Sequence record: NC_028901.1
Reading direction: 5' to 3' (one strand)
Length of the DNA stretch: 43,900 nt
Origin: Escherichia phage slur05
Shown in pieces: positions 16,863-43,398 of this stretch. A program made the translations under genes and the position numbers. Numbering within the stretch: the first letter of the stretch is position 1; the number at the start of each line of letters is the position of its first letter. The notes under the pieces were generated by a model, which did no database searches, was not told the DNA's origin, and saw only the letters and a list, made by a program, of their open reading frames with translations.

Positions 16863-16926
16863 TATGCAGTCCCCTTTTTTATGCAGTTGCCGATGGATAT
16901 TGTATCAGCTATTTCAAAACAAACCT

Positions 16927-17246
16927 TATTCAGTCTCAGACGAGGGGGGCCACTGACCCCCGTCTAGTCTGAAAGACTGGGGTGCTGTCCCGCTGTCCCG
17001 ATCGGCTGAAAACCGCGGCAGCACTGGCGGGGACGGGGTGCTGTCCCGCTTTGTCCCGCCTCTTGTTTGTCCCGCTTTCTGTCCCGTTTGTTTTATGCAC
17101 GAAAACCGAATACGTATGCACTTTTGTGGGGTGGGACAAAACGGGACGTCCCGCTTGTCCCGCTTTTTATTATGCAATGGAAGTGAGTAGGTATGCAGTT
17201 TCACAGGGGTGGGACAAAACGGGACGTCCCGCCTGTCCCGCTTCAT
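16927..17246. repeat. Structured non-coding repeat element, copy A: hairpin, GTCCCGC iterons and two GGGACGTCCC palindromes
   Basis: Core 16927-17100 is ~85% identical to 33700-33870; bulged stem-loop AGACGAGGGGGGCC...CCCCCGTCT, at least 6 GTCCCGC iterons, sub-repeat GGGTGGGACAAAACGGGACGTCCCGCNTGTCCCGCTT at 17127-17167 and 17207-17245. Confidence 0.8.
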
Positions 17247-17937
17247 TATGCGGGGTTCTGCTGCGCCATCTCATCAAGCGCGATTCGTTCCATTAGCTTG
17301 ATATCTTTAAACGCACGCTGCTCGTTTTCGATACCGTGCATCTTAAATAACCACTCCAGCACGCCGTAGTCGATGCCGTATGCGCCACCAAATCCGGTGC
17401 GCCATTGCGTGGCGCAATCTGTGAAGACTGCGACTATCTTCGCGTTGTCAGGCCACAGCGCAACAGGTGGACAAACATCTTCGGGGGCCGCACCCCATAA
17501 ACTTGCGGCTAAATCTTCGGAGGGTGGCGGCGGGCCATAAAAGCGTCGCGCCGCCTCAATTAGTTTTTTTCACGCAACCCCATCAGTTCGAGATAGTACG
17601 ACGTGTGGAACACACCGAACGCGCGTGGATAGTTGACCACCAGGCGGCGGACGTTCTCCGCGTTAAATTCGTCCGGCAGATTCCAGCCTTCTGCGACGTG
17701 CATGATGGCCTCGACCATAACGTTAAAGCCGTCCGGGTCATTGTCGTCATATTCCGACAACTTGCGTTCGGTGTCCTGCATGGTCTGCGAAAATTCGTCG
17801 ATAGGGCGGTGGCGGACGGTGAAAGTCATCTTCCCCGGCTCGTTCTCACCAGGGCGCGGGATCTCAATCGGCAGCTTAAAGGTCGGCTTAGGGTCAAGTG
17901 TAAATAGTGGTGCTTTAGCCATTGTAGTATTCTCCAA
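17247..17937 (-). CDS. Tail assembly chaperone G-T fusion made by -1 frameshift
   Basis: Minus-strand heptamer A_AAA_AAC (plus 17563-17569) at the end of the G-like ORF; the -1 frame stays open for ~105 codons (LIEAARRFYGPPPPSEDL...QQNPA) to a stop at 17247-17249. Confidence 0.6.
17560..17922 (-). CDS. Tail assembly chaperone (lambda G-like)
   Basis: Start refined to MAKAPLF with GGAGA RBS; acidic ~120 aa protein; ends at slippery heptamer A AAA AAC next to its stop codon. Confidence 0.65.
   Translation of the reverse strand: MAKAPLFTLDPKPTFKLPIEIPRPGENEPGKMTFTVRHRPIDEFSQTMQDTERKLSEYDDNDPDGFNVMVEAIMHVAEGWNLPDEFNAENVRRLVVNYPRAFGVFHTSYYLELMGLREKN
17563..17569 (-). other. Programmed -1 ribosomal frameshift site (A AAA AAC) for the G-T chaperone
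   Basis: Slippery heptamer in the last codons of the G-like ORF with an open -1 frame downstream (17247-17562). Confidence 0.6.
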
Positions 17938-31884: not shown

Positions 31885-32091
31885 AGGTATTTAACCAGAC
31901 TAATAACCGACGCCAACAGCACCAGGGCCGCCAGACTACCGCCACATACTACCGCGAAGACGTATAGCATCGAATTGCCCCTTCCGGTTTGCCAATATGG
32001 CGCGCCCATGCACGCGCCACGAAGTAATTGCGAAACACCCGACCGCCTATCTCAAAGCGGTTGTGCATGAGCATATCACGGATAGACGCAC

Positions 32092-32664
32092 TCATTTCAT
32101 AATCACCGAGCGCGGGTCGATGGCCTTCATGCTGCCGTCTGGTTCGACACGGATAAATCCCACACCGTATTCCCGCGCCTGGCGCTGTGCATTCGTCACG
32201 GCATCAAAGCGATTGACTATCTCACGCGTGGCCTGGCGGATCGGCTCCATCACTTTGCTCGCGTCGTAAGTGGCATACGCGGGCTGCGACTTGCGGAACT
32301 CAACGCGCTCATGAGGCTGGCGGTCGCGCAGGCTGTACTTGCGCCCCACTCGCTCGTAGTTGATTAGCCCAAAGTACGTCATACCCCTCTGTATGTTACC
32401 CACTACGCCATCCTTGCGGGATTGCATACGCAGGCCATGACGGCCGACATACTCGACGACCCACAATCCGCCGTCGCGAATATCACGCAGCACATCGCCG
32501 CGCTCGATATCGTGAGTTAGTACGTCGAAGTTTTCCGGCAGCGTGTATTTCTTTGCCCACCACACCCGACCGCCAGCCGCGTTTTGTAAGCGGACGTGGG
32601 AATCCAGGGTTTGGATCGGCTTCAGGATACGGCCATCGTGCTTACGGCGGAATAGTAATTTCAT
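32092..32664 (-). CDS. Hypothetical protein (190 aa)
   Basis: Long ORF with consistent coding appearance; no recognisable motif. Confidence 0.45.
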   Translation of the reverse strand: MKLLFRRKHDGRILKPIQTLDSHVRLQNAAGGRVWWAKKYTLPENFDVLTHDIERGDVLRDIRDGGLWVVEYVGRHGLRMQSRKDGVVGNIQRGMTYFGLINYERVGRKYSLRDRQPHERVEFRKSQPAYATYDASKVMEPIRQATREIVNRFDAVTNAQRQAREYGVGFIRVEPDGSMKAIDPRSVIMK

Positions 32665-32736
32665 TGTTCTGTCTCCTTAAAGTTTAACCGTGCTGCGGGG
32701 AAGTTTAATGTTTTGCTAATCGATGCTTTCATAATC

Positions 32737-32991
32737 TTACTTTCTGTACCTGTACATGTTGTCGCCGTCTGCGGCTAGTGGGGACTCTTTCGCCCATACA
32801 GGCACGCCGCACATCAGCGCGCAAAGTTCCTCGGTAGTGTAGTCGTCGACCTCATCAAGCTCGTCGGCTGTAAGGTTGTCGCCGTCGCATACCGTAGCGA
32901 TGCCGTAATGGGTGTAGTCGTCATAGCAGGATACGAGGTCGATAAACTCCTGCGAATACCCTGCCATTAGCGTTATTTGCATTGGCGTCAT
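32737..32991 (-). CDS. Small protein paralogous to the DNA polymerase C-terminus
   Basis: Last ~36 aa (DDYTTEELCALMCGVPVWAKESPLAADGDNMYRYRK) nearly identical to the polymerase C-terminus; upstream LVSCYDD aligns to polymerase motif C LSVHDE with catalytic residues changed. Confidence 0.5.
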   Translation of the reverse strand: MTPMQITLMAGYSQEFIDLVSCYDDYTHYGIATVCDGDNLTADELDEVDDYTTEELCALMCGVPVWAKESPLAADGDNMYRYRK

Positions 32992-33151
32992 TTGCTCAGT
33001 CTCCAGTGTTTGCCTACCCGCTCAACGGCGGGCTTCCGGCGTAATGTAATACGAATTCCCATTGGTTGCAAGGAAGTCCGCACCCTGAAATCGTGTTGCG
33101 CTGCGAACTGGTGCAAGTAGCGAGTCTGCGTCAACGGCTCATTTTGGCCCC

Positions 33152-33478
33152 TTATTTCGCAAGCTGGGCGAATAGTTCACGCTGGGCTTTAATCCGGGCG
33201 ACGTTTGTCACTGCCGTCTCGCCGATCCCGAAGCGATACGCAAGGCGCTCACGGGCAAATGCAAGCGCGTAGTCCTGGATTGCGTTCGCCAGTGGCTGGA
33301 TCTCCGCCATCGTGTCGAAGCGGCGCTCCAGCATACAAGCGATGGCCTGCTGCGTGACGCGAACAACGGACCACGCTGCCGATAGTCTTTCGACCGCTTC
33401 CGCTCCTTCACCGGCGAACTCCGCCGCTTCTTGTGCCGCCGCCATAGCCATTGCGTAATTCCAGATAATCGCTTTCAT
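33152..33478 (-). CDS. Hypothetical protein (108 aa)
   Basis: Ala-rich helical ORF, first gene downstream of the 33.5-34.0 kb regulatory region. Confidence 0.4.
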   Translation of the reverse strand: MKAIIWNYAMAMAAAQEAAEFAGEGAEAVERLSAAWSVVRVTQQAIACMLERRFDTMAEIQPLANAIQDYALAFARERLAYRFGIGETAVTNVARIKAQRELFAQLAK

Positions 33479-33699
33479 TGTTCAGTCCTCATGTTGGGGT
33501 GCAACCAATATAGCAAGGTGCCAGGCGGAACGCAACCAATATTAATCACGCGCATGAAAAAGTTGATCGCTATCTGCTGTGACTGCAAACCGCATTTTTC
33601 ACTTCGCATAATGCAACTCGCATTGGTTGCCTAGTTCATCCGCGACCGCACTTCGCATCATGCTGCCGTGTATTTTGCAATCCCCGGATTTTATTCAGT

Positions 33700-33870
33700 C
33701 TCAGACGAGGGGGGCCGCTGACCCCCGTCTAGTCTGAAAGACTGGGGGTTGTCCCGCCTGTCCCGCTCCTCTCCAGGCCGCGCCATACGGGGCGGGACGG
33801 GGGTGCTGTCCCGCTTTGTCCCGCCCCTTGTTTGTCCCGCTTTCTGTCCCGCTTACTTTATGCAATAAAA
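33700..33870. repeat. Structured non-coding repeat element, copy B
   Basis: Same hairpin and GTCCCGC iteron series as copy A, with inverted GGGAC...GTCCC pairs; lies in the 533 bp non-coding region beside the primase-helicase gene. Confidence 0.8.
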
Positions 33871-33973
33871 CTGCATAACTATTCATTATATTTACACTAC
33901 ACGGCAACCAATACGACCCGATAAAAACACTCAAAATGGCAACCAATGCGCGCAAAATTTAACCTTTTAGCGA

Positions 33974-33989
33974 TATGGGAATTCCCATA
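33974..33989. promoter_or_regulatory. Perfect 16 bp palindrome TATGGGAATTCCCATA flanked by direct repeats
   Basis: Self-complementary 16-mer; GGCAACCAATGCGCGCA occurs on both sides (33938-33954 and 33992-34008); just 3' of the primase-helicase gene. Confidence 0.5.
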
Positions 33990-34012
33990 CCGGCAACCAA
34001 TGCGCGCAGGAT

Positions 34013-36277
34013 TTAATCTTTCAGATCGTCATCGGTCGCAGAAAGCGTGATGGGTATATTCGTTTTAATGACGATATTCGACGACCCATAGATGGCCCCG
34101 GTGTGCGGATCTGTATAAAAACCGAGCACGCCGCGCTCCACCATATCGTCTATTGCCTTCGTCGATGTGCCACCTTTTGCCAATCCCGCCTGGCGGACAA
34201 TTGCCGATTTACTGAATCCGGTATGGTCCGGGTTATCTTCCATCAGTTTTTCCAGTGCCGCATAAAGCACTTTCTCTTTTTCATTGCGCGGTCCTGCGGC
34301 GTTCTCATCCTTAACTGCGGCCTTGCCCGCGGCCTTCGCCTGTTCGATGGCGAACGGTGCCAGGGCGACAGGTACGAGATAAAGAGTCTCGTCGCGTGGC
34401 GTGGATGCAATTGGCTTGACGTCCCAACCGGCAACCACGTCGCCGAAGTCAGGCCCGGTGCTGGTGGACTGGTGTGATTCGAACGCTTCGGACTTGCGGA
34501 GATCCACCTTAACCTTGCACTTGAGCAGGACGAAGCCGCGCGGCGCTTGCTTGATGCCGTTACGCGCCTTTTCGTGATACAGGTTCAATTGGCCCGGCTG
34601 ATTGTCGTCCGGTTGCTCGAGGAAGAACGCAGAATCGACAGCGCCATGCAGCGCGCCGGACCCACGGGGAGATCTGCTGCCGTTTGCACCCTTCGCCGGG
34701 TGGTGGATGACGCCCGCACTGCCGCCTGTATTTTCCGCAATGGCCTTCAGCGCTTTGACCACTTCACCCATATCGCTGGCGTTGTTCTCGTCGAACGGTT
34801 TAGCATCGGCGGACCGCAGCGCAACAGTCTGGTTGAGTGAGTCGAACGCCACCAGGCCAACCGGCTCGCCGTTAGCGGTGCGGTTGATGAAGCTGATAAC
34901 TTCACGCAAGCCGGATTTGCTGGTGATATCCCAGCCGCGTGATTGCAGATCGATAATGTGCAGCTTGTCCAGGTCGTGCTCATATTTAATCTGCAATGCT
35001 TCCTTACGCTGGTTGGAGGCTTCGCCACCTTCCGCGTCGAAATAGAAGCAATGAGACTGGACGACCTTCGCGCCGCCGAACGGAATCCCCGCGGCAACCG
35101 CACCCATTTGCCCCAGCACATAGAACGACTTACCGATGTTCGACTCACCGGCAAGATACCAGGTCGATTTAAAGTTAATCAACCCCTCGATGATCGGGTC
35201 GTGCTTGCTGAACAGTGCAACCGGCTCGTTGTCCAAGTCTGCGTCCGTACATCCGCCGTACTCGTCGCCGTCTCCGACCGCATCAACGATATGCGCATAG
35301 CACGATTCCACTTCCTCGTCGTCCAGTCCTGGGAGGATGGCGGCGATTTGCTTACGTGACATGTTGTGCGGTTCGACGTTCAGGTGGTCCGGGATCCCGA
35401 TAAGACGTAGCGCCAGGTGCTGGTGTCTGTTCAGTTCGGAACAGCACTCGTTGCCGGTGTGCATACACTTGAAACGGATCTCGCCATCCTTAACCATGAT
35501 AGCGGTGGACCCTTCGCCACTATGCAGATGTTCGTTCGGGCACGGCACTTCATAACCGCGACCAGAAGATAACTCCTCGAATCCGGCCTGGAAGCACCAG
35601 TCCAGAATGCCGTCTGCCACTGCGTCGTCGCCATGGGTAAGCTCGCGGCGTACTTCCTCTTTTTCCACTCCCAGCTTATCAGCCAGGCGAAGCAGACGAC
35701 GGACGCGGGCACGTTTGCCGTAGTGACACTTAACAACCGATTGCTGGTGAGGCAGGTACATAAGGCGGTTTGTGTCTTTCGTGCAATCGTCGAAGTCCAC
35801 ATCTGACAGGCCCAGTTGGTGTAATAGTGCATACTGGACGCGGCCCAGGTCTTCAGCCGGTACAGGCTTGTCAGTGAGCACCAGGAAACGAGCGCAACGC
35901 GTGCCACCTTTCAGCGGGTGGCGATCGCCGGTTGTGGTGTGAAATACATGTTCCAGTCCCGCGTCGATGAACGCCTTACGGCAGCGGCGCAGGGTGCGGG
36001 TGTCGGTACGGTCAATATCGAAGAACAGGATCGAGCGATCCACCGCACTGGTCTTGCGGCGTAATCCGTCACTGGTATAAGCCACAATCCCATCAGCCTT
36101 ACGCTTGCGGCGCGCATACTCCGCTTTATCTTCCGTTTTGTTGATATGCACCGAGGAGATTTCTTTCGCATCATTGATAAATTCGAAAAACTCTTCGGTA
36201 GTCATCTGGAAGTTTTCCGCCCTGGCTTTTTCGCCTTTTTTAGCGGGTCGTGTTACAGCGAATTTAATCAAGCTCAT
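34013..36277 (-). CDS. Primase-helicase (primase/prim-pol-like N-terminus plus P-loop helicase)
   Basis: 754 aa; N-terminal Asp-rich motif (LFFDIDRTD), Cys/His cluster (CPNEHLH...C...NECC), Walker A LAGESNIGKS, Walker B-like LVAFDSLNQ, sensor GVIHHPAKG. Confidence 0.7.
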   Translation of the reverse strand: MSLIKFAVTRPAKKGEKARAENFQMTTEEFFEFINDAKEISSVHINKTEDKAEYARRKRKADGIVAYTSDGLRRKTSAVDRSILFFDIDRTDTRTLRRCRKAFIDAGLEHVFHTTTGDRHPLKGGTRCARFLVLTDKPVPAEDLGRVQYALLHQLGLSDVDFDDCTKDTNRLMYLPHQQSVVKCHYGKRARVRRLLRLADKLGVEKEEVRRELTHGDDAVADGILDWCFQAGFEELSSGRGYEVPCPNEHLHSGEGSTAIMVKDGEIRFKCMHTGNECCSELNRHQHLALRLIGIPDHLNVEPHNMSRKQIAAILPGLDDEEVESCYAHIVDAVGDGDEYGGCTDADLDNEPVALFSKHDPIIEGLINFKSTWYLAGESNIGKSFYVLGQMGAVAAGIPFGGAKVVQSHCFYFDAEGGEASNQRKEALQIKYEHDLDKLHIIDLQSRGWDITSKSGLREVISFINRTANGEPVGLVAFDSLNQTVALRSADAKPFDENNASDMGEVVKALKAIAENTGGSAGVIHHPAKGANGSRSPRGSGALHGAVDSAFFLEQPDDNQPGQLNLYHEKARNGIKQAPRGFVLLKCKVKVDLRKSEAFESHQSTSTGPDFGDVVAGWDVKPIASTPRDETLYLVPVALAPFAIEQAKAAGKAAVKDENAAGPRNEKEKVLYAALEKLMEDNPDHTGFSKSAIVRQAGLAKGGTSTKAIDDMVERGVLGFYTDPHTGAIYGSSNIVIKTNIPITLSATDDDLKD

Positions 36278-37019: not shown

Positions 37020-37538
37020 ATGTTTGAGCAAATCGTAAACCTGATCACTCGCGGCGTAGTAGCACTGGAAGTCATCGCTAAGCATTATGAAACCGTTGGC
37101 GCTGCCGTTGGTAAGCAGGACGACAAGAAGCCGTCTAAGGCCAAAAAAGAAGTTGTCGAAGATGGCGACGATGAAGCCGAAGACGAAAAACCGGCTAAAG
37201 CTAAAAAAGCACCGGCGAAGGGTAAGGCCAAAAAAGAAGTCGTAGAAGATGACGACGACGAAGACGCCGAAGACGAAAAACCGGCTAAGGCTAAAAAAGC
37301 ACCGGCGAAAGGCAAAGGTAAGAAAGATGCCGATCCGCTGGCAGAGATGCGCGACGAAATCAAACAGTATGCCGCGATTATCGCCGGTGGTGATGACGAC
37401 GATGCTAACGACGAATTTGACGACCTGCTGGAAGCGTTCGAGATCAAATCAATCGCCAAGCTGGAAGACGACGACGTCGAAGACTTCCACAAAGATTTAA
37501 AAGAAATCGTCGAGACTTATTTCGAACTGGAAGACTAA
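37020..37538 (+). CDS. Charged repetitive protein (Lys/Ala-rich repeats alternating with acidic blocks)
   Basis: GGAGA RBS; promoter TTGACA-18-TATCAT upstream; internal repeat KKEVVEDxDDExEDEKPAKAKKAPAKGK x2; acidic C-terminal half. Confidence 0.6.
   Translation: MFEQIVNLITRGVVALEVIAKHYETVGAAVGKQDDKKPSKAKKEVVEDGDDEAEDEKPAKAKKAPAKGKAKKEVVEDDDDEDAEDEKPAKAKKAPAKGKGKKDADPLAEMRDEIKQYAAIIAGGDDDDANDEFDDLLEAFEIKSIAKLEDDDVEDFHKDLKEIVETYFELED
37140..37300 (+). repeat. Direct ~75 bp tandem repeat inside the charged-protein gene
   Basis: AAAAAAGAAGT(T/C)GT(C/A)GAAGATG...GAAGACGAAAAACCGGCTAA(A/G)GCTAAAAAAGCACCGGCGAA occurs twice. Confidence 0.6.
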
Positions 37539-39837: not shown

Positions 39838-39902
39838 GGCAACCAAGCCGAACGGGGTGGCTTCCAATAACCCCGATGCATGTGAAAATGAGGAATTGGA
39901 AA

Positions 39903-40685
39903 ATGGCTAAAGTCAACCTGAAAAATGTGCGCGTATGCTTCCTGAAAATTTGGGAACGTGATACCCCTAAACAGGATGGACAAAAACCGGCATACCGTGC
40001 CGTGATTCTTCTGGATAAAGAAGATCCGCAGGTGGACAAAGTGGAAGCGGCAGCGCGCGCAGTGCTCACCGACAAGCTGAAATCCGAGAAGAATGCCGAT
40101 AAGTGGATGGACCGCCACTACGCCCAGGATTCTAAGGAATGCGCAGTGCGCGACGGCGACGAGCGCGATGAAGTAACCGAAGAATTCGAAGGCATGTTGT
40201 ATATCAACGCCAAATCGTTCAAACAACCAATCATTCAAACGTCACTCGGCGAGAAGCAGACTGAACAAGGTCTGACCATCGACGGCGACGAGATTGAAGG
40301 CCAGGAGATCTACTCCGGTTGTTATTGCAACGTGTCCCTTGATATTTGGGCGTGGAACAACACCAACGGCAAGGGACTCGGTGCTGGCTTGCTGGGTTTA
40401 CGCTTCCGTGATGACGGTGAAGCCTTCGGCGGTGGCGGGTCTTCATGCTCCGATGAAGACCTGGACAACGACGACGAAGACGAAGCACCGCGCAAGGCTA
40501 AGAAGTCAAAACGTCGTGATGACGATGATGAAGATGACAAGCCGCGCAAGTCCAAGAAATCCAAGCGCCGCGATGACGACGACGATGAGGAAGATGAAAA
40601 ACCTCGCAAACGTCGTAAGCCACGCGATGACGAAGATGAGGACGACGACGAAGACGAAGCACCACGCAAACGTCGCCGCCGTTAA
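39903..40685 (+). CDS. ssDNA-binding protein (DUF2815-like) with charged repeat tail
   Basis: GAGGA RBS; promoter TTGACC-17-TAAATT (39809-39837); partner of DUF2800 nucleases; C-terminus has DDDEDE/PRKxKKSKRR repeats; terminator 40704-40727. Confidence 0.5.
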   Translation: MAKVNLKNVRVCFLKIWERDTPKQDGQKPAYRAVILLDKEDPQVDKVEAAARAVLTDKLKSEKNADKWMDRHYAQDSKECAVRDGDERDEVTEEFEGMLYINAKSFKQPIIQTSLGEKQTEQGLTIDGDEIEGQEIYSGCYCNVSLDIWAWNNTNGKGLGAGLLGLRFRDDGEAFGGGGSSCSDEDLDNDDEDEAPRKAKKSKRRDDDDEDDKPRKSKKSKRRDDDDDEEDEKPRKRRKPRDDEDEDDDEDEAPRKRRRR

Positions 40686-40743: not shown

Positions 40744-40914
40744 ATGCGTATTAAAGCCAGCGAAGTAAAAGTCGGGATGAAAGTATGGTCCAAGCTACTG
40801 GGGGAATATTTCACAGTTGCCGAGATTCGCAACAACGGCGAAGAGATCACCCTGTCAGACGGCATCTTCTCCATGATCGGCAGCGCTGACGCCGTAGTGA
40901 GGATAAAGCAATGA
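40744..40914 (+). CDS. Hypothetical small protein (56 aa)
   Basis: ORF whose stop overlaps the polymerase ATG (ATGA); below the ORF-track cutoff. Confidence 0.35.
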   Translation: MRIKASEVKVGMKVWSKLLGEYFTVAEIRNNGEEITLSDGIFSMIGSADAVVRIKQ

Positions 40915-43202
40915 AAGACTTCGAACGTCTGTTTCTCGACACCGAGACATTTAGCGGGGTGGACCTGAAGAAAGTGGGGGCGTACGCCTACGCAGAGCAC
41001 CCAACCACCGAGATTATGATTTGCACCTACGCCATCGACGAAGGCCGCGTGCAGACATGGGATTGCACTGAATCCCCCACAATGCCGCGTGAACTGCGCA
41101 AGGCGCTCCGCCATGTATCCCGCAAGAAAGCAAAAATAGTGATGGCTAACGGCCTCCTGTTTGACCGCCTGGTTATCCGCGAGAAGTGGGGCATCGACCT
41201 GCCGGTAAGCCAGATCGAAGACACCATGATTATGGCCTTTCGCCACGCGCTGCCCGGTAGCCTCGATATGCAGTGCCAGGTGCTGGGCGTTGACGCAGAG
41301 CACGCGAAAGATAAGGCAGGCAAGGCGCTGATTAAACGATTCTGTAAGCCCACCCCTAAGACCTACAAAATCCGCCGCTACACACGCGAGACGCACCCCG
41401 AAGAATGGGCCAAATTCTTGCGCTATGCCGCGCTGGATATTGTTGCCATGCGTGAAGTCTACTGGCGCATACCGGACTGGGGCAACTCACCGAAGGAAGA
41501 TGAAATCCTGCTCATCGACCAGTTGATTAACGACCGCGGCTTCTACGTTGACGTTGACCTGGCGAACGCCGCGATCAAAGCGGTACAGGCGCATAAGGAA
41601 GAATTGAAGGAAGAAGCCTGGGAGCGATTTGGCGGTAAGCTGACAGGCAATGACTTCCTGCCAATCCTGCGTGATATCGCCCCGGCGTTCACGATCCACA
41701 ACGCGCAAAAATCCACGCTTAACGACCTTCTTGAAGACCCGGACTTCCCCGACGAAGGCAAAGCGCTTATCGAAATGCGCCTCGGCGCGTCATCAACGGC
41801 ATCGACTAAATACAATCCGCTCGTTAATGGCCTGTCTGCCGATGGTCGCCGTCGTGGGTGTCTTCAGTACGGCGGCGCAAAGCGCACGCTACGCTGGGCC
41901 GGTAAAGGCTTCCAGCCGCAAAACCTGGCACGCGGCGAGTACAGCGACGACCACGAAGGGAAGATTAAGCGCCGCGAAGGCGAGAGCGACGTCGCTTTTT
42001 GGGTCCGGTCGCACATGCTCACCAACGGCATCAACTCCCTGTTACGCGGGACTGCACACTGGGCGTATGACATATCGAAGTTAACGGCCTCGACCGTTCG
42101 CGGGTGCATTATTCCGGCTAAGGGTAAGAAGTTTGTTGTAGCTGACTATTCTAACGTGGAAGGGCGTGGCCTCGCCTGGATCGCTGGTGAGAAAACCGCG
42201 CTAATGGTGTTTAGGGCCGGTCGCGATATTTATTGTGAAACTGCCGGTAAGATGTTCGGCCTTGACCCGGAATACATTAAAGCCAACCGCAAAGACCTAC
42301 GCCAGATTGGTAAGGCGTGTGAGTTGGGACTTGGCTATGGCGGCGGCGTGGCTGCGTTCTTGCAGTTCGCTAAAAACCTGGGCCTCGACCTTTACGCGAT
42401 GGCGGACGTCATGAAGGGCACATTCCCCGATCACATTTGGGCAGCGGCTAAACGGGGTTATGAGTACGCCCGCATTAACGAAGCGAAGCGACCGCCGAAG
42501 CCGGGCAAGAAGGACGAGCGCCCGACTTACATACTGCCTAAAAACGTTTGGCTGACCTGCGACGCGATCAAACGCATGTGGCGTGAGGCCCACCCGAAGA
42601 CGGTAGCCTTTTGGGCCGAGCTTGAGGACGCGGTGTTGTGTGCAATCCGCAATCCTGGCAAAGCGTACTGGGCTGGCGCGAACGTTCGCCCGGATGGTAA
42701 GAAAGCGCTCAAGATAGTCCGCACGAAGGCGAAGCATGACCCAACCTTCGACGAGGAACGCGACGACCCGAACGCCGCGGGGTGGTGGTTGAAAATTGAG
42801 TTGCCGTCGGGGCGTATTATGAGTTATCCGGGCATTGCGCTGTCTGTCACTACCGAGATCGACGAAGATACTGGCAAGAAACGCACCAGCACCCGCATTA
42901 AATATCAGGGCGAGAATCAGACGACCCGCCAGTGGGGCTTCCAGTACACCTACGGCGGCAAACTCACGGAAAACATCGTACAGGCGCTGTGTCGCGATAT
43001 CCTCGCATGGTCCATGCCTGGCGTTGAAGCTGCGGGATATGAGATCGTACTGTCCGTACACGATGAACTGATAACCGAAGTGCCGGATACTGACGACTAC
43101 ACAACCGAGGAGTTGTGCGCGCTGATGTGCGACCTGCCTGTTTGGGCGAAAGGCTTCCCGCTTGCCGCGGAAGGCGACATTATGTACAGGTACAGGAAGT
43201 AA
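40911..43202 (+). CDS. Family A DNA polymerase with N-terminal 3'-5' exonuclease domain
   Basis: Exo motif LFLDTETFS; polymerase motif A DYSNVEGRGLAWIAGE, motif B RQIGKACELGLGYGGG, motif C LSVHDEL. Confidence 0.85.
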   Translation: MKDFERLFLDTETFSGVDLKKVGAYAYAEHPTTEIMICTYAIDEGRVQTWDCTESPTMPRELRKALRHVSRKKAKIVMANGLLFDRLVIREKWGIDLPVSQIEDTMIMAFRHALPGSLDMQCQVLGVDAEHAKDKAGKALIKRFCKPTPKTYKIRRYTRETHPEEWAKFLRYAALDIVAMREVYWRIPDWGNSPKEDEILLIDQLINDRGFYVDVDLANAAIKAVQAHKEELKEEAWERFGGKLTGNDFLPILRDIAPAFTIHNAQKSTLNDLLEDPDFPDEGKALIEMRLGASSTASTKYNPLVNGLSADGRRRGCLQYGGAKRTLRWAGKGFQPQNLARGEYSDDHEGKIKRREGESDVAFWVRSHMLTNGINSLLRGTAHWAYDISKLTASTVRGCIIPAKGKKFVVADYSNVEGRGLAWIAGEKTALMVFRAGRDIYCETAGKMFGLDPEYIKANRKDLRQIGKACELGLGYGGGVAAFLQFAKNLGLDLYAMADVMKGTFPDHIWAAAKRGYEYARINEAKRPPKPGKKDERPTYILPKNVWLTCDAIKRMWREAHPKTVAFWAELEDAVLCAIRNPGKAYWAGANVRPDGKKALKIVRTKAKHDPTFDEERDDPNAAGWWLKIELPSGRIMSYPGIALSVTTEIDEDTGKKRTSTRIKYQGENQTTRQWGFQYTYGGKLTENIVQALCRDILAWSMPGVEAAGYEIVLSVHDELITEVPDTDDYTTEELCALMCDLPVWAKGFPLAAEGDIMYRYRK

Positions 43203-43206
43203 GATT

Positions 43207-43398
43207 ATGAAAGCAGAAATGAGCATTATGCGCGCTGGCGCGACGGACAATGACGAGATTCGAATCGTCATTAGACTGGAACGTGGCAAGACCATTACGG
43301 CACTCGTCACGCCTGAAAACCTGGCGCTGGCACTAACCGTGCGATCGGATATACCGGTAGACCTTCGTCTGCGTAACGTGGAATTGCAGACCAAATGA
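43207..43398 (+). CDS. Hypothetical small protein (63 aa)
   Basis: ATG 5 nt after the polymerase stop; overlaps the downstream start. Confidence 0.35.
   Translation: MKAEMSIMRAGATDNDEIRIVIRLERGKTITALVTPENLALALTVRSDIPVDLRLRNVELQTK

What the first reader, a model, noticed from the sequence alone, without database searches (positions are those of the whole stretch)
32737..32991. Small ORF that is a diverged duplicate of the DNA polymerase C-terminus
The 84 aa product ends DDYTTEELCALMCGVPVWAKESPLAADGDNMYRYRK, almost identical to the last 36 residues of the polymerase (TDDYTTEELCALMCDLPVWAKGFPLAAEGDIMYRYRK, 43.10-43.20 kb). Further upstream LVSCYDD aligns with polymerase motif C LSVHDE but with the catalytic residues replaced. 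The two DNA segments are only ~80% identical, so this is an old duplication kept in frame, ~10 kb from the polymerase in the late region. It could be a partner-binding tail expressed separately (a regulator or decoy) or a decaying remnant.
Basis: seen in the sequence. Interest (0 to 1): 0.65.

Follow-up and report, generated by a model that had tools for sequence, protein, structure and literature searches.

The report
Polymerase-tail fragment fused onto small phage gene
A 169-base piece copied from the end of a phage DNA polymerase gene was inserted into a small unrelated gene 10 kb away, giving that gene a borrowed 36-residue tail; this is an ordinary by-product of phage genome shuffling, not a second polymerase part.

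Summary
The window is Escherichia phage slur06 (Dhillonvirus). The repeat is real: 134 nt, 84% identical, in inverted orientation (32714-32847 vs 43092-43225), and 30 of the last 36 residues match. Only the last 36 codons of the 84-aa ORF come from the polymerase. Residues 1-48 belong to an unrelated small-gene family (phrog_15977) that is a 44-50-aa protein in most Dhillonviruses, so the proposed motif C remnant (LVSCYDD) is a chance resemblance.

Comparison with empty-site phages shows a clean 169-nt insertion (32677-32845). It carries the polymerase tail, its stop codon, the 4-nt gap and the first codons of the gene that follows the polymerase.

The insertion made two in-frame fusions:
- the 84-aa ORF;
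- a 23-codon mini-ORF (32661-32732) that ends on the old stop codon and overlaps the start of the next gene.

Eight distinct variants exist, in three GenBank phage records and six metagenome contigs. All keep both frames open, and all three indels are multiples of 3. The tail's amino-acid sequence is only weakly constrained: dN/dS is 0.35-0.65, against 0.07 in real polymerase tails.

My reading is a captured fragment that is translated and tolerated, perhaps kept open to preserve translational coupling. I see no evidence of polymerase-related function. Interest is low to moderate.

The parts
32737..32991 (-). Chimeric 84-aa ORF (slur06 CUL02236.1): an N-terminal core of the phrog_15977 family fused to 36 codons copied from a polymerase 3' end, using the copied TAA as its stop
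32848..32991 (-). Codons 1-48, the native small-gene core (invariant GIATVCDGD). Most Dhillonviruses have it as a 44-50-aa protein ending ...EIEETEQ*. Codons 43-48 (32848-32865) contain a 9-nt in-frame tandem duplication shared with phage Lzu_P1.
32677..32845 (-). 169-nt insertion relative to empty-site phages (bov16_1, UDS3lw). Empty site: GAGATTGA|GGAGACTGAGCAATGA. Two to five bases of microhomology (A-Y-Y-GA) at the left junction.
32714..32847 (-). Recognisable polymerase-derived part (arm 1 of the inverted repeat): 36 codons, TAA, GATT, and ATGAAAGCA plus a few bases of the gene that follows the polymerase
43092..43225 (+). Arm 2: the resident polymerase's last 36-37 codons, its stop codon, and the start of the downstream 63-aa gene (phrog_1222, 43207-43398)
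32661..32732 (-). 23-codon mini-ORF MKASISKTLNFPAARLNFKETEQ. It uses the copied start codon 4 nt after the TAA, ends on the original ETEQ-stop of the 50-aa gene, and its TGA overlaps the ATG of the next gene (ATGA). Open in all 8 variants.
32665..32676 (-). Relic of the original 3' end of the small gene (GGAGACAGAACA, against GGAGACTGAGCA in empty-site phages). It still serves as the Shine-Dalgarno region of the 190-aa gene.
32092..32664 (-). Downstream 190-aa gene (phrog_10243, unknown function). In empty-site phages it overlaps the 50-aa gene by ATGA.
40911..43202 (+). Resident family A DNA polymerase (763 aa). Motif C (SVHDE) lies at about residues 714-718 and the copied region corresponds to residues 728-763.
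32988..33134 (-). 5'-truncated remnant (48 codons) of the 89-90-aa gene that precedes the small gene in related phages. Its stop overlaps the ATG of the 84-aa ORF.

Best explanation
SHOWN:
- The ORF is a chimera. A 169-nt fragment was inserted, in inverted orientation relative to the polymerase gene, into the last codons of a small accessory gene (phrog_15977 family, normally 44-50 aa).
- The fragment is the 3' end of a Dhillonvirus family A polymerase gene: its last 36 codons, the stop codon, the 4-nt gap, the first roughly 7 codons of the next gene, and about 35-45 nt of untraceable sequence.
- The left junction fused the small gene's core in frame to the polymerase tail. The right junction fused the copied start codon in frame to the small gene's old last codons. 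The second fusion is a 23-codon mini-ORF whose stop still overlaps the start of the following 190-aa gene.
- It was a single event: the junctions are the same in all carriers. The insertion now sits next to very different alleles of the small gene.

INFERRED:
- The event was illegitimate (microhomology-level) recombination between phage genomes or genome copies.
- The copied tail has no polymerase function. It lacks every catalytic motif, and it is an internal palm element that cannot fold on its own.
- It is translated as a loosely constrained C-terminal extension.
- What selection preserves is mainly the unbroken chain of translated, stop-start coupled ORFs: 84-aa ORF, TAAGATTATG, mini-ORF, ATGA, 190-aa gene. 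The peptide sequence itself is not preserved.
For: Identity and origin:
- The window is slur06.
- The N-terminal core matches phrog_15977 and the tail matches a polymerase PHROG only at residues 44-84. There is no Pfam or NCBIfam hit.
- Alignment of empty and occupied sites defines the insertion and the retained old 3' end.
- The repeat runs through the polymerase stop-start junction. That junction, TAAGATTATGAAAGCA, occurs only in one class of Dhillonvirus polymerase loci.
- The copies form a clade (77% bootstrap) nested among exactly those loci.

Distribution:
- 3 phage records carry the fusion, against 98 with the core gene and about 157 Dhillonvirus records.
- There are 8 distinct fusion proteins in the large protein collection.
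- No hits in IMG/VR or JGI contigs.

Constraint (dN/dS):
- Polymerase tails 0.07; copied tails 0.64 (six loci), 0.49 (eight loci), 0.35-0.58 within clades; native core 0.29; mini-ORF 0.28.
- 12 or more nonsynonymous changes out of about 16 (my hand parsimony count) has p=4.5e-6 under polymerase-like constraint, and neutrality is not rejected.
- One clade carries a 13-nt inverted patch that rewrites 6 residues and was tolerated.

Frame maintenance:
- Both ORFs are open in 8 of 8 variants. TAAGATTATG and the ATGA overlap are invariant. Indels of 9, 24 and 3 nt are all in frame.
- The chance of no stop codon under neutrality is roughly 0.08-0.09. Three in-frame indels have a chance of about 0.04 (inference).

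The polymerase tail maps after motif C, as in Klentaq.
Against: - There are no expression data for this ORF. The one Dhillonvirus proteomics paper detected few non-structural proteins (PMC10673088).
- The frame-maintenance statistics are weak because the sequences are few, short and related.
- PVWAK and RYRK are invariant in all eight tails and dN/dS is below 1, so some sequence-specific role of the tail is not excluded.
- A Shine-Dalgarno sequence (AAGGAGA) precedes the 190-aa gene, so that gene may not need coupling.
- The origin of the last 35-45 nt of the insertion was not found.
- The structure prediction was uninformative (pLDDT 45).
Confidence: 0.7

Rival explanations
1. Neo-functional tail. 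The captured 36 residues give the small protein a new, selected activity. For example, they might mimic the polymerase C-terminal helix and hairpin to bind something that normally contacts or senses the polymerase, acting as a regulator or as a decoy for a host defence.
For: - The frame is kept in 8 of 8 variants, including across three indels.
- PVWAK, RYR(K/R) and DYTTEELCA are conserved where present.
- dN/dS is 0.35-0.65, below 1.
- The insertion is found next to very different core alleles: core dS 0.83 against tail dS 0.17. It has therefore spread by recombination.
Against: - Constraint is 5-9 times weaker than in the real polymerase tail.
- Radical changes are tolerated: C to R, G to W or E, a 13-nt inversion rewriting LAAEGD to PAFCGG, and an 8-codon deletion of IEDYTTEE.
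- The segment is a buried palm element, not a docking tail (plus established Pol I structure).
- It is rare: 3 of 98 phage records with the core gene.
- No confident fold was predicted.
Confidence: 0.17
2. Purely neutral scar. The fragment is a recent recombination remnant under no selection, and the open frames are chance survival.
For: - dN/dS is not significantly different from 1.
- The probability of no stop codons by chance is about 0.09, which is not negligible.
- The surrounding region is full of decay and indels: a truncated upstream gene in slur06, and a deletion fusion in BF9.
Against: - All three indels are multiples of three, and both ORFs and both stop-start junctions are intact in eight variants.
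- The mini-ORF has dN/dS 0.28.
- Divergence between the tail clades reaches about 20% without disruption.
Confidence: 0.1
3. Recombination substrate. The two inverted 134-nt arms allow inversion of the 10.2-kb replication module between them, which would swap the two tails. Because the module is transcribed divergently, transcription polarity would be preserved on both sides.
For: - The inverted repeat flanks the divergently transcribed replication module.
- Phage recombinases can act on diverged repeats (PMC2327257, title and abstract only).
Against: - No polymerase gene in about 150 Dhillonvirus genomes ends with the copy-type tail. All are at most 75.6% identical to it at protein level.
- No inverted arrangement was seen in any related record.
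- The arms are only 84% identical.
Confidence: 0.02
4. Footprint of a homing endonuclease or a split polymerase gene. The fragment would be a displaced exon-like end left by a mobile endonuclease.
For: The neighbouring gene's homologue is labelled 'HNH endonuclease' in UDS3lw. Polymerase C-terminal fragments exist as separate ORFs in some phages (phrog_7766; P0063).
Against: - The 190-aa neighbour has no HNH or other nuclease domain in Pfam, NCBIfam, PHROGs or by PDB sequence search.
- It sits at the same place in empty-site phages.
- The resident polymerase is intact, and the copy lacks motif C.
Confidence: 0.01

Closest known systems
Mosaic phage genomes built by illegitimate or homeologous recombination, which create new gene boundaries and gene fragments (general model; own knowledge, e.g. 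the Hendrix/Hatfull mosaicism work; also PMC2327257 and PMC2884548, seen as abstracts only)
   Same: A short foreign segment is inserted at a site with only a few bases of microhomology. It produces a novel chimeric ORF in a hypervariable accessory region and has since spread by homologous recombination into diverged backgrounds.
   Different: The donor here is an essential gene of the same phage genus, and the fragment includes a stop-start junction. Both junctions happen to be in frame, so an uninterrupted chain of translated ORFs is restored.
Translationally coupled phage operons (ATGA-type overlaps, termination-reinitiation; own knowledge)
   Same: Neighbouring genes in this block overlap by ATGA in related phages. 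The insertion keeps a 4-nt stop-start gap and an ATGA overlap.
   Different: Coupling through a 23-codon bridging ORF made from two gene ends has not been demonstrated here. It is an inference from conservation.
Split or fragmented family A polymerase genes in phages (phrog_7766: separate ORFs of about 186 aa covering the polymerase C-terminus)
   Same: Residues 44-84 align to the last 41 positions of that profile.
   Different: The copy lacks motif C and everything upstream of it, the resident polymerase is complete, and the rest of the ORF is an unrelated family. It is not a polymerase subunit.
phrog_15977 small proteins of Dhillonviruses (44-50 aa; also 63-72-aa forms with a C-terminal Cys/His-rich extension)
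   Same: Residues 4-48 are a full-length match, at the same genomic position between the helicase-primase gene and the lysis genes.
   Different: The usual ...EIEETEQ end is replaced by a polymerase-derived tail. The function of the family is unknown.

Membership tests
Family A DNA polymerase (functional domain or split subunit) | Catalytic palm motifs A and C (the carboxylates, e.g. the HDE of motif C) and motif B of the fingers | tested here: not met
   Similarity to the polymerase starts after motif C (pol residues 723/728-763; motif C at 714-718, aligned to Klentaq). No DNA similarity upstream of that point.
Family A DNA polymerase (functional domain or split subunit) | Significant match to the DNA_pol_A profile | tested here: not met
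   No Pfam or NCBIfam family at E<=0.1 for the 84-aa protein. It matches only the last 41 positions of phrog_7766.
phrog_15977 small-protein family | Full-length profile match and a conserved genomic position | tested here: met
   E=6e-17, residues 4-48 against profile positions 1-45 of 47. Homologues lie at the same position in 98 phage records. GIATVCDGD is invariant.
Pseudogene or decaying remnant | Stops or frameshifts in orthologues | tested here: not met
   Eight distinct variants are all open to the same stop, and the 9-, 24- and 3-nt indels are in frame.
Pseudogene or decaying remnant | dN/dS about 1 | tested here: inconclusive
   dN/dS is 0.35-0.65, with few changes. Neutrality is not rejected, and polymerase-like constraint is rejected at p=4.5e-6.
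Homing-endonuclease-associated duplication | An adjacent gene with an HNH, GIY-YIG, LAGLIDADG or similar nuclease domain, present only with the duplication | tested here: not met
   The neighbours have no nuclease domain. The 184-190-aa neighbour is also present at empty sites.
Invertible DNA segment | Both orientations found among isolates, and a dedicated invertase | tested here: not met
   No polymerase gene with the copy-type tail in the phage collection. No invertase is annotated in the module. Orientation within slur06 lysates is not testable here.
Translationally coupled gene chain | Stop and start codons that overlap or lie within a few bases, conserved across relatives | tested here: met
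   TAAGATTATG and ATGA are invariant in 8 of 8 variants.
Translationally coupled gene chain | Downstream expression depends on upstream translation | not testable with these tools
   This needs reporter fusions with premature stop codons.

The most novel reading that the evidence does not exclude
The captured polymerase helix-hairpin has been exapted. The 84-aa protein would then present a mimic of the polymerase C-terminal element. It could titrate a factor that recognises the phage polymerase, such as a host defence sensor or a replisome partner. Alternatively it could insert into polymerase molecules as a dominant modulator. That would be a new way for a phage to regulate or shield its replicase.
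Probability: 0.05. Interest if true: 0.7.

Novelty: new member of a known kind. Interest (0 to 1): 0.25.

Why it matters
This is a cleanly resolved case of how phage genomes make new reading frames. The donor class, the empty target site, both junctions and eight descendants can all be read directly.

It also corrects database annotation: the orthologue in phage Lzu_P1 is deposited as 'DNA polymerase I'.

If the coupling idea holds, it shows that an insertion can be tolerated because it happens to restore an unbroken chain of translated ORFs. That constraint acts on the frame and not on the protein sequence. None of this changes what is known about phage replication.

Tried and rejected
- **Motif C remnant:** rejected.
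- **Source of the last 35-45 nt of the insertion:** not found. I tried a local alignment to the polymerase-downstream gene and to the whole window against shuffles, blastn against phages and exact scans of IMG/VR.
- **More carriers:** an exact-pattern scan of IMG/VR and JGI metagenomes found none.
- **Promoter and terminator scan around the ORF:** nothing above shuffles.
- **Rfam scan of 32400-34100:** nothing credible.
- **Repeat of the spacer motif elsewhere in the window:** none.
- **AlphaFold2 of the 84-aa protein with a 10-sequence alignment:** pLDDT 45, unusable, so no fold search was run.
- **Neighbour function:** Pfam, PHROGs, NCBIfam and PDB sequence searches gave no function, and the 'HNH endonuclease' label on the neighbour's homologue in UDS3lw is not supported for the slur06 protein.
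- **Apparent compensated frameshift in the L009 tail:** reinterpreted as a 13-nt in-place inversion. CGCCTTCTGCGGC is the reverse complement of GCCGCAGAAGGCG, which is present at the homologous place (1 nt offset) in polymerase allele L025. It is therefore not counted as evidence for frame selection.
- **Resident polymerase tail of contig L009:** could not be fetched. The locus was cut 175 nt short, so gene conversion between the copies was not tested.
- **Literature:** no description of this duplication and no expression data.

Full report
**What the window is**

Positions 32000-34000 are 100% identical to Escherichia phage slur06 (LN881731, genus Dhillonvirus), in reverse orientation, and about 157 related records exist. 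In the slur06 annotation the finding is CUL02236.1, 'hypothetical protein'. It lies on the leftward-transcribed arm, after the helicase-primase gene (34013-36277) and a 108-aa ORF, and before a 190-aa ORF, the holin/lysozyme genes and the terminase. The polymerase lies on the rightward arm of the same divergent replication module.

**Check of the observation**

- The 84-aa ORF (32737-32991, minus strand) exists.
- BLASTP against the 763-aa polymerase (40911-43202) gives 31/41 identities, E=2e-19, covering ORF residues 44-84 and polymerase residues 723-763. Nothing else in the ORF aligns.
- At DNA level the repeat finder reports one inverted pair, 32714-32847 and 43092-43225, 134 nt at 84%.
- Pairwise and multiple alignments show that similarity begins exactly at the GAC GAC TAC of DDY. 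It runs through the stop codon into TAAGATTATGAAAGCA, the stop-start junction between the polymerase and the 63-aa gene that follows it (phrog_1222, 43207-43398).
LVSCYDD is not a degenerate motif C. There is no DNA or protein similarity upstream of DDY, and the distance to DDY differs (30 residues against 16).

**What the N-terminal half is**

- Residues 4-48 are a full-length match to phrog_15977, a 47-position family of unknown function (E=6e-17). Residues 44-84 match only the last 41 positions of a polymerase PHROG.
- No Pfam or NCBIfam family matches.
- A tblastn search with residues 1-47 finds this core at the same genomic place in 98 phage records.
- In bov16_1 and UDS3lw it is a 50-aa gene ending ...EIEETEQ*, and its stop overlaps the ATG of the next gene (184-190 aa, phrog_10243) as ATGA.
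- Only three phage records have core and tail in one piece: slur06, the identical P-GXEC-L2P5, and Lzu_P1. In Lzu_P1 the 78-aa orthologue is annotated 'DNA polymerase I'.

**Anatomy of the insertion**

Aligning six occupied sites, two empty sites and two polymerase 3' ends gives these sequences:
- Empty site: GACGAGATTGA|GGAGACTGAGCAATGAAATTAC.
- Occupied site: GAnGAGATCGA|CGACTAC...(insert)...AAACTTTAA|GGAGACnGAnCnATGAAATTAC.

The insertion is 169 nt (window 32677-32845). It consists of:
- 36 polymerase codons, TAA, GATT, then ATGAAAGCA and a few more bases of the polymerase-downstream gene. These parts make up the 134 recognisable nt.
- About 35-45 nt whose source I could not trace.

The left junction shares only 2-5 bases (A-Y-Y-GA) with the polymerase sequence (GATACTGA|CGACTAC). 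The old last codons of the small gene (GGAGACAGAACAATGA) remain downstream of the insert and still provide the Shine-Dalgarno sequence and the ATGA overlap for the 190-aa gene.

Because 169 = 3x56+1, the old end is out of frame with the 84-aa ORF. It is, however, in frame with the copied start codon. This creates a 23-codon mini-ORF, MKASISKTLNFPAARLNFKETEQ (32661-32732), which starts 4 nt after the TAA and stops on the old TGA.

**Distribution and history**

- Two searches of the 5.8-billion-protein collection found eight distinct fusion proteins (P0001-P0006, P0011, P0012; 67-84 aa). The many other hits were tail-less forms of the core gene.
- Their DNA (loci L005, L009, L011, L012, L014, L093-L095) has the same junctions, so this was one insertion event.
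- Exact-pattern scans of IMG/VR and JGI contigs found no further carriers.
- A neighbour-joining tree of the 108-nt tails places all copies in one clade (77% bootstrap). That clade is nested within Dhillonvirus polymerase tails, next to rolling and L017. Their loci are among those with the same TAAGATTATGAAAGCA junction; other Dhillonviruses have different genes after the polymerase.
- Copy-versus-polymerase divergence is mostly synonymous (dS about 0.9, dN/dS 0.11-0.14), in the range of polymerase-versus-polymerase divergence within the genus (dS 0.59). The 84% identity within slur06 therefore largely reflects descent from a different polymerase allele. It is not evidence of long decay in place.
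- The core next to the insert is far more diverged among carriers (dS 0.83) than the tail (0.17) or the spacer (7% differences). The insert has therefore been moved by recombination onto different core alleles.

**Selection**

Nei-Gojobori dN/dS estimates:

| Sequence set | dN/dS |
|---|---|
| Polymerase tails, 16 Dhillonvirus alleles | 0.07 |
| Copied tails, six loci | 0.64 |
| Copied tails, eight loci, last 28 codons | 0.49 |
| Copied tails, within the two clades | 0.58 and 0.35 |
| Native core | 0.29 |
| Mini-ORF | 0.28 |

- With about 12 of 16 inferred changes nonsynonymous (my hand parsimony count), polymerase-like constraint is rejected (p=4.5e-6) and neutrality is not.
- Tolerated changes include C to R, G to E or W, and an 8-codon deletion (P0012).
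- One clade also carries a 13-nt patch, CGCCTTCTGCGGC, that is the exact reverse complement of GCCGCAGAAGGCG, found at the homologous place (1 nt offset) in polymerase allele L025. This small inversion turns LAAEGD into PAFCGG.
- Against that, in all eight variants both ORFs are open and the TAAGATTATG junction and the ATGA overlap are invariant. The three indels (9, 24 and 3 nt) are all multiples of three.
- The chance of escaping stop codons over the minimum number of substitutions is about 0.09 (six loci) or 0.16 x 0.53 (eight loci). Three in-frame indels have a chance of about 0.04. Together these are suggestive but not conclusive evidence that the frames are maintained.

**What the copied piece is in the polymerase**

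The polymerase's ...EIVLSVHDELITEVPDTD aligns to Klentaq's ...LLQVHDELVLEAPKER (motif C), at chain residues 473-501 of 538. The 35 residues that follow in the phage enzyme therefore correspond to the final helix and beta-hairpin of the palm in Pol I-type enzymes (established structure knowledge). This is a core element and not a flexible docking tail, which weakens the 'partner-binding tail or decoy' idea. AlphaFold2 on the 84-aa protein gave pLDDT 45, and below 40 for residues 61-84, which is uninformative.

**Interpretation**

The origin is shown: a chimera made by a single 169-nt insertion of a polymerase 3' junction fragment into a small accessory gene.

The function is inferred. The tail is a translated but loosely constrained extension. 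The conserved features are the frames and the stop-start junctions. That pattern fits selection for uninterrupted translation through to the coupled downstream gene, in a block where ATGA overlaps are the rule.

Rivals:
- A selected new function of the tail is possible. PVWAK and RYRK are invariant and dN/dS is below 1.
- A purely neutral scar is possible but fits the indel pattern poorly.
- An inversion substrate has no support in about 150 genomes.
- A homing-endonuclease footprint has no support. No nuclease domain is found next door, and the neighbour is also present at empty sites.

**Novelty and score**

No paper in the searchable library describes this duplication. The mechanism class, phage mosaicism by illegitimate recombination producing a chimeric ORF, is well known. 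The case is unusually well resolved but not surprising. Interest 0.25; new member of a known kind.

Noticed in passing
window 16926-17250 and 33691-33885: A 195-nt direct repeat (82%) lies in two noncoding stretches. It holds a GC-rich hairpin (AGACGAGGGGGGCC.CTGACCCCCGTCT) and all 12 exact copies of TGTCCCGC in the window (chance expectation 2.1), all on the + strand. Each stretch sits just upstream of a leftward gene block: the 880-aa ORF, and the 108-aa ORF, small ORF and lysis genes. This is probably a shared regulatory region with arrays of protein-binding sites.
   Followed up: partly
window 32661-32732 (-): An unannotated 23-codon mini-ORF is created by the insertion. It runs from the copied start codon of the polymerase-downstream gene to the old stop of the small gene and overlaps the next gene's ATG. 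It is open in all eight carriers, with dN/dS about 0.28.
   Followed up: yes
window 32988-33134 (-): This is a 5'-truncated remnant (48 codons, TTG start) of an 89-90-aa gene that is complete in BF9, Lzu_P1 and the metagenome contigs. slur06 has lost its first 40 or so codons.
   Followed up: partly
L002 (phage BF9) 2399-2812: In BF9 a deletion fuses the same small-gene core in frame to the C-terminal 50 or so residues of the 190-aa neighbour. This is a second, independent chimera at this locus, and the fused ORF is not annotated in the record.
   Followed up: partly
proteins P0007, P0008, P0018, P0035, P0038, P0058: The small-gene family also exists as 63-72-aa forms with a Cys/His-rich C-terminal extension (...ECNHDH...CDKCG......CEHDF...CRKCG...), possibly zinc-binding. 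The C-terminus of this family is a hot spot for alternative ends.
   Followed up: no
L005 2386-2622 (phage vB_Eco_Lzu_P1, XHV08148.1): The 78-aa orthologue of the chimeric ORF is deposited as 'DNA polymerase I'. This is an annotation error caused by the 36-residue tail.
   Followed up: yes
L009 / L093 / L095, tail codons 22-30: One clade of the copies carries a 13-nt in-place inversion relative to polymerase alleles (CGCCTTCTGCGGC against GCCGCAGAAGGCG), with 1-nt adjustments on each side. It looks like a quasi-palindrome template-switch mutation.
   Followed up: partly
record PQ843332.1 (phage P-GXEC-L2P5): The record is 88,607 bp, about twice the 44-45 kb usual for the genus, and it has six separate places matching a 2-kb query. 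It is probably a concatenated or duplicated assembly.
   Followed up: no
window 37143-37322 and 40452-40684: Two genes on the rightward arm, one of them the Enc34-type ssDNA-binding protein (39876-40685), end in similar low-complexity repeats that alternate acidic (DDDEDE) and basic (KPRK/KPAKAKK) runs.
   Followed up: no
loci L015-L026, L081 (Dhillonvirus polymerase 3' ends): At least four different genes or junctions follow the polymerase stop codon within the genus: the phrog_1222 gene, VRR-NUC directly, and two others. The polymerase 3' boundary is itself a recombination hot spot.
   Followed up: no
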